A stretch of DNA of 33,773 bases from Salinispira sp. GTDB lineage: Bacteria > Spirochaetota > Spirochaetia > DSM-27196 > Salinispiraceae. The position numbers are program-made. The stretch spans positions 1 to 33,773 of the forward strand of contig CBDDDG010000026.1 of assembly GCA_965226555.1 (NCBI GenBank), read 5' to 3'. Positions 15,001-24,000 of the stretch are shown one piece after another (position 1 is the first letter of the stretch; the number at the start of each line of letters is the position of its first letter).

Positions 15001-18000
15001 CTACTTTATCCTTAGACATATATTCTCCTATATTTTATAAGGTTTCAGATTCGGAATGCTGAGCATTCTTTTGTTTTTCTTTCCAGGAAAGAAATCGTAT
15101 CATTGTATTATCCATAAACGGCAGCCCATAGTCAATATTAATAATCTGCCCATTCATGGCATCCAGCAATCCGCTGCATAAAGAAAGAACTGCCTTCCCG
15201 CATTCCTCCGGTGTAAGAACACTATCGGCGCCGACTAAGCCCTCATTCTCAAGAAAATCGAAAAATTCTTCACCAAATATGGCATTGAAACTTTCGGTTT
15301 TCACATTACCGAAACGAATAACATTAACTTTGCTGCCTTCCGTAAAAAGGTGGGCTGCCATATATTTACCGAAAAATTCGAGAAGCGACTTTGATGCGGC
15401 TACATAATCGTATCCCGGATAGAAATGATCCGGACCGTCGCTGGAAATGCCGAGAACTCGTTTCGGATATGCGCCGAAGAGTTTTTTAATTTTTCTGGTG
15501 TATTCGATCATCGGCCAGGTAGAATAATCGAAGGTTTTGTACAATGAGCGCTTTTTATAGTTATCCAGACTGCGCATGGTTGCGGCATAGCCGACATTTG
15601 AAATAAAGATATCGACTGAAGATGCAATTTTTTTTACTTCAGTAAGAAGCCTGTCTGTGTCTTCATCTACCGAAACATCGGCTTCAAGCAGAATAGGTTC
15701 GGGAGCGCCTCGGTCAGTAAAGCCCTTCTTCACTTCATTCATATCTGCGCTGCCCCACTTGTAGGTGAGAACTGTCTGTACCCCAGCCTGCGCAAGCTGC
15801 ATGGCAGAAGCAAGCCCGATACCCTTTGTTCCGCCGGTTATAAGGGCGGTCTGTCCCGATAAATCTATTGAAATCATACTATGAATATCAGCATACTATA
15901 TCAGCATGAATACCGTCAATATGGTATGCTGCGATTTTCCTCTCTTTCAATACAAAGTTTTGCATTTTGCAAAACTTTGTATTATCCTTGTCCGTTTTTC
16001 TGAAATGCTCGAATTTCATCTCCGCTGAGCTTGCCCTTGCTCAAGCCCTGCCCGCCATGGCTTATCTATAAGATCTACCAACATATGTTTTGCCTCCTCA
16101 GGATTTTCCTGCCGGCTGCATGGCAAGCCGGATGCCCGGACGCGCAGGCCGAGCAACACCAATTAATGCGATCCGTTCCGCAATGTCCGCATTTCCTCAT
16201 CGCTCAGCCCGGTAACATCCTGAATGTCATGGGCTGAAAATCCTTTGGAAAACATACTGCGGGCGTTTTTTCTCCGCTCCTCAATATGCCCCTCAGCGCG
16301 ACCCTTTGTGATTCCCTGCTCAAGACCTTCAACACGGCCTTTCAGAATGCCTTTCTCCATGCCTTGGTTGACAAACCAATCACTCATCTGAACTTTTTTC
16401 ATCATAACTTCTTCTCCTCCAGAAACTTTTGCATTGGAAAATTGTGCAGAGCACAATTTTCCAGTAGCAAAAGTTTCACATTTGGATGACTCTATGTGCT
16501 TAGCATTCTCGCATTTTGTAGAAAATTTTGCCTCAGGCAAAATTTTGTTTCGGGATTTATTTCCCTGTTGATTTTTTCAAAGCGTGTATCCAGTTTCAAG
16601 CCCTTCATATAGAGCAGAAGGTTCGGGATCATCTCGCGGGAATTCTCTGCGGGAAGCTCTTTCAGACACTTCGCAACCTTCCTCAAATCTTCATCACCTG
16701 TCTTACTGACTTTCCGCATAATATAGCACAGGCCTCCCCCTGTCAACACAACTCCGTCTGATCCCCGGGTAAACTCCTTCTCACTCATCCTATTCAAATC
16801 GACCATAACAGGCCTATTGAGAACCTTTGGCCTTGCAAGATATTTTTCCATCATTGCATACAATTTTTCCGGTATGTGTGTATGCACATCCCCTGAACTG
16901 TGGAAACTGAGATCTCCTTCCCATAGTGCTTCGCCATGATACCACAGCACCAGAACAAGAAGATCGGTCTGCGCCTGAAATGTTTTGCTGTTTATGAGGG
17001 CTCTCTGGTATTTATCGAACTGTTCGCTGACCTTCGGATCACACGCGCTTTTGTGCTCAATACGAAAGTTTTGCTACCGGAAATTGTGCTTGCACAATTT
17101 TCCAAGGCAAAACTTTCTATACCTTGAGAGAATCAAACATATAGATGAGAGAATCCTCATTGGAAAATTTTGCTTTGCAAAATTTTCAGAAGGAGAACAA
17201 TTCGTAAACCGTCGAATTCCCCTTTGAGGGGAATAATGAGAATGAGATCGCAGAGTACCTCACGCCCTTTGTCAACGTAGATGGTGTTTTCGATGCGAAT
17301 AGTATCTAAATCCATAATGTTAACGATGTTTTCTGGAAAAATTGTCCGTGGAATATCGGCTGCCGCCTCGGGGGTGCCATAGATACTTACAGAAACTTTT
17401 GCATTGGAAAATTGCGCTTGCGCAATTTCCAGTAGCAAAAGTTTCACATTTGGATGACTCTATGTGCTGAGCATTCTCGCATTTTGTAGAAAGTTTTGCA
17501 TTGGAAAATTGTGCAGAGCACAATTTTCCAATAGCAAAACTTTGTCTTAAAAGCAATATCATGGATATTGTATCCGGCATTACTCATATATTCCTCCTGT
17601 TATATCTATAACGGGTAAAAAGTCATTTTTAATTGTGTTTTTTGAAAGAATTTTGCAAAATTTGTGAATTTTTTTTCGGGGGAAGGATCGGGAATGCGGG
17701 TTAGTGGACGGGAAGGCTGCGCGCGTATGGTTGAATTGGCCCCTGTATTATAGGGTGTATTGACGCATGCTCCCGGGAACAATGCTCCGGGCGAGGTTTT
17801 TGTTGAAGTATGAGTATATAAAGTCCCTGAATATCCGGGGATTTTCAAAAACATATTTCCAGCGTGTACCATTCCTATATATTTTCCGCTCATACTATAT
17901 AGACGGGTAAAATATGAACGGTGAATATGAGAAAGTTTTTCAAAAAGTTTTATTACAGAGTTTTGCTACTGAAAATTTTGCTCTGCAAAATTTTCCAAGG

Positions 18001-21000: not shown

Positions 21001-24000
21001 CGTCCAATCTCCGTCATCTGTGCGATATTGCAACTCATACCCGGTAATGGGGCTGCCGCCGTTATCGGTTGGCGCAGTCCATGTGGCAATGAGCAACCCA
21101 GTGCCCGCTTCAAAGGTTGGGATAGCCGGCGCGGCAGGAACAGTGAGAGTTGCGGTAGGTGTTGCCGTGGCAGACGCCGACCAGCCGCCGGTGCCCTGTG
21201 CGTTGACGGCGCGCACCTGCACAACATAACTGAGACCGTTTGTCAGCTCGGTAATGGTATGGCTTGTGCCGGTAATACCGGAAATAATCTCCGTCCAGCC
21301 TTCGCTGCCGTCTTCCCGATAACGCAGGTGATACTCAGTAATATCGTTGTCCGTGTTGTTCTCCCCCCACCCCCAATTCCATGTAGTAGGATCAACCCAC
21401 GATGCGATGAGCTGTTCGCTCCCTGATTCGAGAGTCGGAGCAGACATGGTTGGCGGCGCAATCGGCATTGGACAGCCAGAAATCAACGCAATAGCTATTG
21501 CGCAGAATGCGAAGAGAGTTACCCCCCCCCCTCTATTATATGACGTAATTTTCATATATGTTACCTCCAAGGTATTAAAAACTTTTGAATAACTCCATTA
21601 TATCTGCCGGGAGTCTTTTTTCCACGCAGAAAAAATTATTCATCGGTTCTTAAGATTCAGAATACACTATTCTCCACCCTTTGTATACCCAAAACCTAAA
21701 AATCATTCTTTTTTTCATCTTTTTTCATTATTTTCCTCATTTCCGGCAGCAGTACCGCGGGCACAGCTATCCTGCTTGTCCAAGAGCGCGCTAAGATTCT
21801 GCCAAGATTGCAGCAACAGCACTTTGAACATCATAACCGGATGATATCCTTTCGCGCCCATCGAATTGTTGTTGATAGCACAGAGCATATCCCCAATTTC
21901 CTTCCAATTGATCAGTTCATACAGGCTATCGAAGCGTTTCAGCGCTTTACTTTCCTGAATACCCTGATTGATCAGCGATCCATGATGTTCTTTCCAATTA
22001 TCTATCCCGCATAGAGATCATCGATGATCCGCTTTGTTTCAGGATAGGCAAAACTGATGGAATGCATCATATCTTCCTGAAGGCGGGCATCAATAAGAAG
22101 TTTTTTCTTTGCTGCGGAAAGGCTGTATTTAAGGAGCTGTACCGATTTGGGGTTTTTTTCGGCAATGTGCAGGGCAATATCACGCGCTTTGGCAAGAACT
22201 TCAGATCGGGGAATAATATAATTGATATTCGTATTTTTGAGGGCAAGTTCCCTTCCCCGGTAGCGTTTGCCGCTCAGCATCATCTCATTGGCAACATAGG
22301 GACCCACGGCTTCTCTGAGAAGGGTTGTTGTTCCCATGCCCGGAGTAAAGCCCATATTCATAAAAACTGTTCCGTAGCGGGATTCTAATGCAGCTATAAT
22401 GATATCTGAACAAAGCGCAATAACGAATCCTCCCCCCATCGCATGTCCTTCCATGGCAGAAATAATGGGAAAACGACACGCGATGAGGCGTTCGGAAATG
22501 AGCAGATCCCGTACAACCAGCTTACCGCCGGCAAGCTCCATGAGCGATTCCTTATCGGCGCCGCCGGAAAATGTCGAAGTCAATCCTCGAAGAATGAGAA
22601 CCCTCGGCTGTATTTCCTCAACAGCATCAAGAACAGTTAAAAAGGCAGCAACAAAGGCGTGTGAAAATACATTCTCACCCGCCACGTCATGCATATAGAT
22701 GACAGCAATATCGGAATCATCCATAGCGAATGAGACCCTGCCGTATTTTGCGCACAGCTCCTGCGCGGAACGGTTTTCGTATTCTTCGGGAAGAGCTTTC
22801 ATAGGATTCCTTTTGCAGCAGCGGCGGGGCTGGGGGTGGCGGGAGACAGCGCAATAGCGCTGGCTGATTTCATCGCCGCGGCGGGGTTGGGCATCGCGGC
22901 GGGGTTGGGGCTGGACAGCGCAGCAGCGCGGCCGGAAAGCGGGCCAACCGGTTTAAAGCGTTGAAACCAGGCAGGGGTCTGCCCTGAGTGAAATGCTTCA
23001 AGCCCTTCCCGTACCCGAGGCTGCCTCATATGTTCCAGCAGCGTTTGTTCGGCTTTTTTTCGGCTTTCGGAAAAATCGGCATTGAGCGTTTCGGCAAAAA
23101 ATGTTTTTGCTGCTTTGAGAGCATGTGGTTCAGCTCTCATCATTGTCCGAAACATTGTGCGGAGGCATTTTTCCAAATCCGATGCAGAATATACCTGATC
23201 TAAAAATCCAAACTGCCGGGCATCTGCGGCATTGATCCGCGCCGCTGAAAGTACAAGATACCGGAAACGTTGAGGCGACATGCGGAAACCCGACATATAC
23301 GGCAATACATTGTAGGGGACAAGTCCGAAGAGCACTTCGGAAAGCTCAACACTTGCCTCTTCCGTCCCAATGACAATATCGCAGGCGGCGGCAAGACCCA
23401 CCCCGCCGGCCTTTACAGGGCCTTCAAGTAAGGCGACAACAGGTTTTGGCGCATTCATAATGGCAGATAAAAGTTCAGAATACAGGGTAACTCCTCGTGA
23501 ACGCTCTGCTTCGTTTTTTTCTCGCGCGGAGGATGGGGGCGACGCAGAGGGAGCGGGCGGGGGCGGAGCTGCGGAGGATGGGGGGGGCGCTGGGGGAGCG
23601 GGCGGCGCAGCGGAGGCCTCAGTTTCAAGGCTCACTTCCAGTCCTTCAAGGTCCATTCCAAGGCAGAAGGACTCTTCACCGGAGCGAATCATGAGGATTT
23701 TCGCTTCTTCATCTTCTATTCCACGGGAAAGGGCAGCTTCCATTTCAGAGAGGCTGAGCGGATTGAGCCGGTTACCCCTCCCATCGGCACAATGGATGAT
23801 GCCGAGCCCTGAATCGCAATGGTAGCGTACTTTTTTGCGCGTATCATGTGCTGGATGAGGCGCTGGATCAGGCATGCTCATATCTTCGATACCAATCTTT
23901 CACTTCCTTCAGCACAAGCAGACCGCTTCCCTCGTAATGGGTTTTGTACCAATTATTCAGAATAGAAAGATCGGGGGTGAAGTTCGGATTTTCGACATAG

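What a model noticed while it worked through the whole genome (the two positions that open the first line are those of the whole stretch)
15877..22002. Rpn toxin-antitoxin expansion coupled to PARCEL lipoprotein genes
The genome holds 79 full-length Rpn nuclease genes, each with the internal start for the small antitoxin, plus about 195 shorter pieces, and they follow surface lipoprotein genes as a unit. Lipoprotein and Rpn genes fill 14% of the genome, and the pair sits inside operons that are contiguous in relatives.
Evidence so far: 79 of 79 have an internal Shine-Dalgarno plus ATG, 77 keep the E-x-Q/K-S motif; 63 of 123 fn3/PARCEL genes have a same-strand Rpn within 1.5 kb downstream against 27 of 1,110 other genes; 70 of 125 Rpn clusters follow such a gene; 415 kb in all; five subfamilies share C-terminal tails. 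Relatives have 0-4 Rpn matches against 138 here and 0-14 DUF285 matches. The insert at this locus splits ECH from ER, adjacent in 20 of 23 related loci.
(Added by a program. Inside this text positions count along the whole contig: contig position 1 is position 1 of the stretch shown here. "Call 12" and the like, gene names such as g00115 and contig names such as C1 are that model's own, and its searches are not shown. The text may have been shortened before it was handed on; [...] marks where a part breaks off. The agent that wrote the report below was given it as the finding of a first reader that could run no searches.)

Follow-up and report, generated by a model that had tools for sequence, protein, structure and literature searches.

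The report
Rpn nucleases trailing shuffled lipoprotein genes
This bacterium carries 76 full-length Rpn nuclease genes, predicted toxin-antitoxin pairs, and half of its 123 surface-lipoprotein genes have an Rpn gene or piece just behind them; the two families likely spread and reshuffle by recombination through shared spacer DNA rather than jumping as one transposon.

Summary
The counts hold; the "unit" reading holds only in part. G000 has 76 full-length Rpn genes in 7 subfamilies, all with an internal ribosome-binding site plus ATG (control 35/535). Rpn follows 63 of 123 fn3/PARCEL lipoprotein genes on the same strand (other genes 27/1,071). Depth in a public run (about 100x the flanks) rules out an assembly artefact.

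The pair is not a defined mobile element. Ends vary, no two lipoproteins are over 87% alike, the lipoprotein does not predict the Rpn subfamily, and Rpn copies recombine freely. Flanking genes are adjacent in a relative at only 7 of 42 testable islands; this locus is one.

Best reading: homologous recombination through a shared trailer after the lipoprotein links and shuffles both families. Both Rpn genes in this insert are broken but keep the predicted antitoxin. A hairpin element breaks Rpn nuclease domains 96 times, 1 of 163 antitoxin parts, and no lipoprotein gene. Thirty-one lipoproteins carry a signal-peptide poly-G tract, 24 out of frame.

The scan noted the hairpin element before on another piece of this genome (e1-3869613), not the linkage. 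Verdict: new variant of a known kind.

The parts
15035..15877 (-). Enoyl-ACP-reductase-like SDR (ER); right flank of the insert
   Evidence: Pfam adh_short_C2 1e-33; adjacent to ECH in 11/11 related loci
15890..15919 (-). Promoter-like site in front of ER, possibly replacing read-through from ECH
   Evidence: 9/12 consensus match; matches in this region are no more frequent than in shuffles, so a hint only
15951..15981 (.). Short palindrome of the hairpin family at the right end of the insert
   Evidence: sequence; multicopy from about 15950
16016..16084 (-). Truncated RpnS of subfamily F4 with its SD
16163..17587 (-). Rpn2 (subfamily F3), nuclease part cut by three hairpin-element insertions
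   Evidence: PF04754 on a fragment; insertions mapped against intact paralogues
16163..16405 (-). Intact predicted RpnS antitoxin of Rpn2
   Evidence: SD+ATG and full tail; TIGR01784 C-terminal match
16418..16548 (-). Hairpin element (~130 bp) inserted directly before the RpnS ribosome-binding site
   Evidence: joint skipping 131 bases in runs X1 and X3
17062..17189 (.). Hairpin element (~128 bp) inserted just before the IEHKS catalytic motif
   Evidence: joint skipping 128 bases
17387..17544 (-). Hairpin element (~158 bp) at codon ~12 of Rpn2
   Evidence: joint skipping 158 bases
17877..18111 (-). Second copy of the direct repeat flanking Rpn1 (GC-rich module, hairpin, head of an F4 Rpn gene)
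   Evidence: D6, D12, D13; spacing ~1,515; 92% mean column identity
18215..19262 (-). Rpn1 (subfamily F0): frameshift in a C run at 19192-19197 and Ala instead of Asp at 19070-19072, so predicted inactive
   Evidence: PF04754 8e-9; D63A abolishes RpnA activity (PMC5350276)
18215..18514 (-). Intact predicted RpnS antitoxin of Rpn1 with 12-nt repeats
   Evidence: (D2)
19390..19629 (-). First copy of the direct repeat, between lipoprotein trailer and Rpn1
19630..19728 (-). Lipoprotein 3' trailer with terminator-like hairpin (19658-19683)
   Evidence: its core motif follows a lipoprotein gene at 48 of 49 sites
19729..21555 (-). Lipoprotein gene: lipobox, two fn3 domains, PARCEL (DUF285) repeats at 19876-20400
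   Evidence: Pfam DUF285 7e-62, fn3 8e-22; TIGR02167 82 bits over cut-off 30; 75-nt period
21522..21531 (-). G10 tract in the signal-peptide region, in frame here; predicted phase-variation switch
21573..21779 (-). Degenerate right end of an IS5-family element (80% identity), upstream of the lipoprotein
   Evidence: similar ends lie upstream of 8 lipoprotein genes
21789..22001 (-). Internal piece of the same IS5-family transposase gene (97.7%), abutting the ECH stop; the IS left end is missing
   Evidence: DUF772
22002..22802 (-). Enoyl-CoA hydratase (ECH); left flank of the insert
   Evidence: Pfam ECH_1 4e-39

Best explanation
Rpn nuclease genes sit behind lipoprotein genes because both share a 250-500 bp spacer, and homologous recombination through that spacer and through the paralogous genes likely copies, swaps and deletes them piecemeal, with no fixed element. 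Shown: the orientation-specific linkage, the shared trailer, direct repeats around many Rpn genes, mosaic copies, variable ends. Inferred: RecA-type gene conversion and unequal crossing-over do the work. Rpn genes would be toxin-antitoxin passengers whose addiction slows loss of the segment; toxin halves can be knocked out while antitoxin halves are mostly kept. The lipoproteins would be the selected cargo, a variable surface repertoire switched by poly-G slippage. How a new chromosomal site is first colonised is not shown; IS5-family ends upstream of some lipoprotein genes, as here, are one candidate.
For: Linkage 63/123 vs 27/1,071, same strand and downstream. Terminator stem of the trailer in 47/63 lipoproteins with Rpn vs 14/60 without. 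Trailers of Rpn-less genes stop at varying points. 23/76 full Rpn lie between their own direct repeats of at least 100 bits vs 9.3% of random pairs; Rpn1 here too. Four-gamete failures in 75-96% of site pairs per 100-bp distance bin in F0 and F1. Tails 94-100% identical between subfamilies whose nuclease domains are 22-43% alike. Identical knock-out insertions shared by 14 and 17 copies on 9 contigs each, so broken copies spread too. At one locus present twice (C13/C16) the signal peptide and PARCEL/C-terminal parts differ while the middle is 97-99% identical, and the C13 5' tile matches another locus at 98%. Ends of adjacencies broken relative to G004 face an island 57/270 times vs 44/924 for kept ones. 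Hairpin element: 96 of 411 groups split an Rpn N-domain, 0 split a lipoprotein, 1 of 163 RpnS is hit; RpnS intact at 76 of 87 sites without full RpnL. recA and mutS present. Zhong et al. describe the same lack of ends and the tandem duplication (PMC10327210).
Against: No filled/empty pair with exact junctions was found, so the founding insertion step is unexplained. Only 36/134 clusters have the GC module upstream, and 53 of 76 full Rpn lack a strong own direct repeat. 69/134 clusters do not follow an fn3/PARCEL gene. dN/dS 0.16-0.31 in the nuclease domain means selection on the nuclease, which a pure passenger model must explain by addiction or defence. Hairpin end motifs are not enriched upstream of lipoproteins (40/108 vs 183/415). 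The 96 insertions reduce to about 17 shared sites (22 bins), and RpnS and lipoprotein DNA are less AT-rich (48% vs 54%), so sparing of RpnS is only suggestive. Breakpoint enrichment could partly be mis-joining through repeats in a two-strain assembly. Toxicity and RpnS translation are untested here; 33/76 copies have Lys where Q84K inactivated E. coli RpnA.
Confidence: 0.6

Rival explanations
1. The Rpn nucleases themselves drive the shuffling: low-level cutting by the many intact copies triggers repair between paralogous islands, spreading Rpn and diversifying the neighbouring surface lipoproteins.
For: 70/76 full copies keep three acidic active-site residues; dN/dS 0.16-0.31, like this genome's transposases at 0.13-0.30. 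E. coli Rpn proteins promote recombination and induce SOS (PMC5350276 passages). Zhong et al. raise Rpn-initiated duplication as a possibility. Rpn-linked lipoproteins are closer to their paralogues (87% vs 82% mean tile identity, p=0.006).
Against: Lipoprotein mosaicism is the same next to intact, broken or no Rpn (0.63, 0.60, 0.60 donors per tile, p=0.80), and the identity effect is equal for intact and broken. Knocked-out alleles spread across many contigs. So action in cis is not supported; action in trans was not testable.
Confidence: 0.15
2. The expansion is selected as phage defence: many RpnL/RpnS pairs with different repeat numbers cover different phages, and linkage to variable surface proteins (possible receptors) is functional.
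For: RpnP2 protects E. coli against T-even phages and repeat number sets specificity (PMC10327210). 149 of 152 intact RpnS here are distinct. Purifying selection on the nuclease domain.
Against: 87 of 163 RpnS sites lack a full RpnL, and knock-out alleles are shared by many loci. A terminator-like hairpin separates lipoprotein from Rpn. No Rpn near DUF285 genes in 52 of 52 loci from other genomes.
Confidence: 0.13
3. Lipoprotein plus Rpn is one defined mobile element that inserts into operons.
For: Oriented linkage. Junction-spanning homology in 31/63 pairs. 8 gene pairs adjacent in G004 are split collinearly by an island, including this one.
Against: No common ends: repeat extent runs continuously from 0 to over 400 bp on both sides. 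Nearest lipoprotein paralogue 48-87% identical and nearest Rpn mostly 93-97%, whereas IS copies are 97-100% alike. No partner fidelity. Only 3/20 LP+Rpn islands have adjacent flanks in G004.
Confidence: 0.07
4. The expansion is an artefact of a two-strain bin or of assembly.
For: 6.67% contamination. Duplicated segments with switched flanks exist.
Against: In run X1 the unique flanks have depth 9-10 and Rpn bins 1,000-1,200; the excess recurs in X4, from another study (2-5 vs 100-165). X1 may be the source sample. Low-copy duplicates total about 48 kb. Copies differ by 3-10%.
Confidence: 0.03

Closest known systems
Rpn (YhgA-like, PF04754/COG5464) RpnL/RpnS toxin-antitoxin systems (Zhong et al., PMC10327210)
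   Same: PD-(D/E)XK-type N-domain, internal start for a C-terminal protein, variable four-residue repeats, tandem arrays, no terminal repeats or target duplication, variable ends.
   Different: 76 full genes and 163 RpnS starts against 26 copies as the high example in that paper's main text (supplements not read). Copies are dispersed behind surface-lipoprotein genes rather than clustered with defence genes. Tails are exchanged between subfamilies. No close homologue outside this organism (1 distant hit).
PARCEL (DUF285/TIGR02167) surface lipoproteins of Mycoplasma (Roske et al., PMC2996958)
   Same: [quoted passage not shown]
   Different: Here fused to fn3 domains, 123 genes in the family, and followed by Rpn; no Rpn near DUF285 in 52/52 other loci.
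Toxin-antitoxin cassettes stabilising the Vibrio cholerae superintegron (10.1101/2023.11.17.567518, passages)
   Same: TA modules scattered through a repeat-rich gene reservoir, proposed here also to slow its deletion.
   Different: No single array, and no attC-type cassette ends seen; islands are dispersed and shuffled by homology. An integrase was not searched for.
IS200/IS605-derived palindromic elements (PATEs), REP/REPIN and MITEs (family definitions recalled; PATE reading also in note e1-3869613)
   Same: 100-155 bp gene-less hairpin element with fairly fixed ends, in hundreds of copies.
   Different: No Y1 transposase or TnpB found in G000 (genome 93.5% complete). Hairpin ends resemble the terminal repeats of the local IS5-family element. 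Target duplication 0-2 bp, unclear.

Membership tests
Rpn/YhgA RpnL-RpnS TA | Transposase_31 (PF04754) N-terminal domain | tested here: met
   E 4e-18 and 8e-9 for the two window proteins; 140 genome matches. TIGR01784 scores 46.9 and 43, under its 52.1 cut-off.
Rpn/YhgA RpnL-RpnS TA | Acidic catalytic residues equivalent to RpnA D11, D63, E82 | tested here: met
   70/76 full copies (equivalence by motif position). Not met by the two copies inside the finding. 33/76 have K at the Q84 position.
Rpn/YhgA RpnL-RpnS TA | Internal SD + start codon for the C-terminal protein | tested here: met
   76/76 vs 35/535 controls
Rpn/YhgA RpnL-RpnS TA | Variable four-residue repeats in the shared C-terminal part | tested here: met
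   RpnS 58-142 aa, 149 distinct of 152; 12-nt periodicity
Rpn/YhgA RpnL-RpnS TA | RpnS is translated, binds RpnL and blocks its toxicity | not testable with these tools
Retention of RpnS at 76/87 sites without full RpnL is indirect.
Rpn/YhgA RpnL-RpnS TA | Protection against phage | not testable with these tools
   No assay possible; PADLOC gives only a weak tail match.
Rpn/YhgA RpnL-RpnS TA | PD-(D/E)XK fold in a predicted structure | tested here: inconclusive
PARCEL lipoprotein | Tandem 25-residue DUF285/TIGR02167 repeats with a lipoprotein signal | tested here: met
   lipobox-like motif in 108/123
Composite transposon or other defined mobile unit | Shared ends with terminal repeats or target duplication | tested here: not met
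   Continuous spread of end positions; left IS end missing at this locus
Composite transposon or other defined mobile unit | Near-identical whole copies with the same partner | tested here: not met
IS200/IS605-derived palindromic element (hairpin element) | Y1 transposase or TnpB partner in the genome | tested here: not met
   PF01797 and PF07282: 0 matches in G000; genome incomplete
Integron cassette array | IntI integrase and attC sites | not tested
   considered only as a functional analogy

The most novel reading that the evidence does not exclude
A host-associated spirochaete has turned Rpn toxin-antitoxin nucleases into a genome-wide diversification engine: about 70 intact nucleases, each held by its own repeat-coded antitoxin, cut DNA at low rate and drive gene conversion among 123 phase-variable surface lipoproteins, while the shared trailer lets Rpn genes home behind lipoprotein genes.
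Probability: 0.15. Interest if true: 0.8.

Novelty: new variant of a known kind. Interest (0 to 1): 0.52.

Why it matters
How Rpn genes move and why their four-residue repeats vary are named open questions (PMC10327210, PMC10400984). This genome gives 76 full genes, 149 distinct predicted antitoxins with tails swapped between subfamilies, and natural knock-outs that mostly spare the antitoxin. That is a ready panel for testing specificity and cross-neutralisation. It also shows a route for Rpn spread, by homology and without a transposase, and a large, likely phase-variable surface-protein repertoire. The parts are all known families and the organism appears uncultured, which limits surprise.

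Tried and rejected
Filled/empty sites. The two-strain duplicates gave mosaic alleles and switched flanks but no clean junction. The metagenome scan found only distant relatives (at most 64% identity). Laid contigs listed no joint skipping the whole insert, with 141 joints not shown. No RNA holder listed.

Defined ends and partner fidelity: rejected.

Cis diversification by intact RpnL: no effect.

Hairpin end motifs as landing sites: not enriched upstream of lipoproteins (40/108 vs 183/415) or after Rpn clusters (44/134).

Island-to-island rearrangement: 10 of 135 broken adjacencies have both ends at islands vs 6 expected, weak.

Poly-G with Rpn: no association (p=0.14).

Mobiliser of the hairpin element: no Y1 transposase or TnpB; element not found in 20 relatives searched.

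Synteny used 2.8 of 3.78 Mb of G004 and one relative only.

Literature searches (listings) showed no report of this linkage. The library lacks most subscription papers, and I did not read Zhong's supplements, which may list higher copy numbers.

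
Full report
THE LOCUS. The window is contig C26 of G000 (2.98 Mb, 26 contigs, 93.5% complete, 6.67% contaminated). An earlier scan note calls the organism a spirochaete; I did not test the taxonomy. The stretch 15878-22001 interrupts a fatty-acid/polyketide-type operon between ECH and ER, which lie 14-120 bp apart in 11 of 11 related loci. On the minus strand it reads: an internal piece of an IS5-family transposase gene, an older right end of that IS, an fn3/PARCEL lipoprotein gene, a trailer with a terminator-like hairpin, a ~240-bp repeat, Rpn1, the repeat again, Rpn2, a truncated small Rpn piece and a short palindrome. Neither Rpn is intact. Rpn1 has a frameshift in a C run and Ala at the Asp whose loss inactivates E. 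coli RpnA. Rpn2 carries three hairpin-element insertions. Both keep a complete predicted RpnS.

THE COUNTS. I found 76 full-length Rpn genes in 7 subfamilies, 76/76 with an internal SD+ATG (controls 35/535) and 75/76 with E-x-Q/K-S. 70/76 keep three acidic active-site residues, and the nuclease domain has dN/dS 0.16-0.31. Of 123 fn3/DUF285 genes, 63 have a same-strand Rpn within 1.5 kb downstream, against 27/1,071 other genes or 27/272 genes with an open 3' end. Other lipobox genes give 1/22, and a second repeat-lipoprotein family gives 6/28. The two families cover 14.2% of the genome. Thirty relatives have 0-6 PF04754 and 0-14 DUF285 matches. None of 52 DUF285 loci from other genomes has an Rpn nearby; the same profile found 4 Rpn in G004 as a control. 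Contig depth in run X1 is 9-10 on the flanks and 1,000-1,200 on Rpn, and the excess recurs in a run from another study. X1 may be the source sample. The expansion and linkage are real and, in what I searched, confined to this lineage.

NOT A DEFINED UNIT. Repeat extent upstream of lipoproteins and downstream of Rpn clusters varies continuously. Homology spans the junction in 31/63 pairs but at 69-85% identity, one pair at 94.7%. The nearest lipoprotein shares the Rpn subfamily 22/63 times by its 5' part and 11/63 by its 3' part, against 15.8 expected. No lipoprotein has a paralogue over 87% identical, and successive 200-bp tiles of this insert match different loci best. Against 2.8 Mb of relative G004, flanking orthologues are adjacent at 7/42 islands versus 419/549 plain gaps and 21/39 gaps of 200-800 bp. 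Eight adjacent pairs are split collinearly by an island. Ends of broken adjacencies face an island 57/270 times against 44/924 for kept ones. So most islands mark rearrangement points. Mis-joins through repeats in a two-strain assembly could add to this.

WHAT LINKS THEM. Lipoprotein genes end in a conserved trailer whose core motif follows such a gene at 48 of 49 sites; its stem is present in 47/63 genes with Rpn and 14/60 without. A GC-rich module recurs after lipoproteins and after Rpn stops, and 23/76 full Rpn lie between their own direct repeats against 9.3% of random pairs. Recombination between copies is pervasive. Four-gamete failures reach 75-96% per distance bin. Tails are 94-100% identical between subfamilies whose nuclease domains are 22-43% alike. 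The one island present in both strains has swapped signal-peptide and PARCEL parts. Identical knock-out insertions occur in 14 and 17 copies on 9 contigs each. recA and mutS are present. I infer that gene conversion and unequal crossing-over through the trailer and the paralogous genes build and reshuffle the islands. The founding insertion at a new site is not explained. IS5-family right ends lie upstream of 8 lipoprotein genes including this one, but hairpin end motifs are not enriched there.

A NATURAL KNOCK-OUT SCREEN. A hairpin repeat occurs at 459 sites (0 in a shuffled contig). Of 411 groups, 96 split an Rpn nuclease domain and none splits lipoprotein coding DNA. It hits 1 of 163 RpnS, and RpnS is intact at 76 of 87 sites that lack a full RpnL. 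Insertions recur just before the catalytic motif in three subfamilies and next to the RpnS ribosome-binding site in four. This fits dispensable toxins, retained antitoxins and selected lipoproteins. It is suggestive only: the 96 reduce to about 17 shared sites, base composition differs, and note e1-3869613 reports a general liking of this element for ribosome-binding sites.

THE CARGO. Thirty-one lipoprotein genes carry a G7-G19 tract in the signal-peptide region, 7 in frame and 24 out; 32 of 79 G/C runs of 8 or more lie at lipoprotein 5' ends. At most 7 of 786 orthologue matches look split, so this is not general assembly error, though homopolymer miscalls were not excluded with raw reads. 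Roske et al. proposed the same switch for PARCEL lipoproteins of M. agalactiae.

RIVALS. Nuclease-driven shuffling in cis is not supported: mosaicism is 0.63, 0.60 and 0.60 donors per tile next to intact, broken and no Rpn (p=0.80). Action in trans stays open and is the novel case. Phage defence is the known Rpn role and may explain the purifying selection, but not the linkage or the spread of knock-outs. Against activity, 33/76 copies have Lys where Q84K inactivated RpnA; that Lys is the canonical PD-(D/E)XK residue (recalled), so this needs a test.

WHAT I READ. PMC10327210: parts 1-3 of 4, the main text, no supplements. PMC10400984: whole text. PMC5350276, PMC2996958 and 10.1101/2023.11.17.567518: passages. 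Searches (listings) showed no report of the Rpn-lipoprotein linkage. Large Rpn families in other bacteria are recalled but unchecked beyond the 26 copies Zhong cites.

VERDICT. Observation largely confirmed, unit and operon claims not. A new variant of a known kind: an extreme Rpn expansion tied by shared spacer DNA to a variable lipoprotein repertoire. Interest 0.52.

Noticed in passing
genome-wide; window 21522-21531: Poly-G tracts (G7-G19) in the signal-peptide region of 31 fn3/PARCEL lipoprotein genes, 24 out of frame: likely phase variation.
   Followed up: partly
genome-wide; window 16418-16548, 17062-17189, 17387-17544: 100-155 bp hairpin element at 459 hairpin sites. It nests into itself, its ends resemble the terminal repeats of the local IS5-family element, and no Y1 transposase or TnpB was found.
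   Followed up: partly
window 2850-9996: A second island of the same build: IS5-family element, fn3/FG-GAP lipoprotein (5984-8248), a coiled-coil protein with a weak PD-(D/E)XK-type match (4736-5623), and an intact F1 Rpn (2850-3974).
   Followed up: partly
window 10754-29279: The host operon joins KS, AT, HMG-CoA synthase, two ECH, ER, ACP, a PLP aminotransferase-class enzyme, FabA/Z, a second KS and a PPTase; its ER has close orthologues in all 7 family relatives. It may make a methyl-branched, amino-acid-linked lipid (inference).
   Followed up: no
G000, e.g. C22:165327-166775, C25:25457-26818: A second expanded lipoprotein-like family with G-Y-D/N-x-x-G repeats (28-40 members); 6 of 28 are followed by Rpn, 5 of them subfamily F2.
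   Followed up: partly
G000 genome-wide: Subfamily F4 has 56 N-terminal starts but 2 full genes; F4 heads precede 41 of 152 starts of other subfamilies, as if F4 was the earlier occupant.
   Followed up: partly
G000 C13:13724-14400, C16:35450-36250, C22:143480-143750: Flanks joined directly in one strain's contig each border a different lipoprotein gene in other contigs: a strain rearrangement through islands or a mis-join.
   Followed up: partly
window 3-1686: EcoRI-type adenine methylase followed by a GmrSD_N/HNH protein, a type II restriction-modification-like pair.
   Followed up: no
G000 genome-wide: 25% of the genome is repeated three or more times and at least seven IS-like families of 8-23 copies are present.
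   Followed up: no
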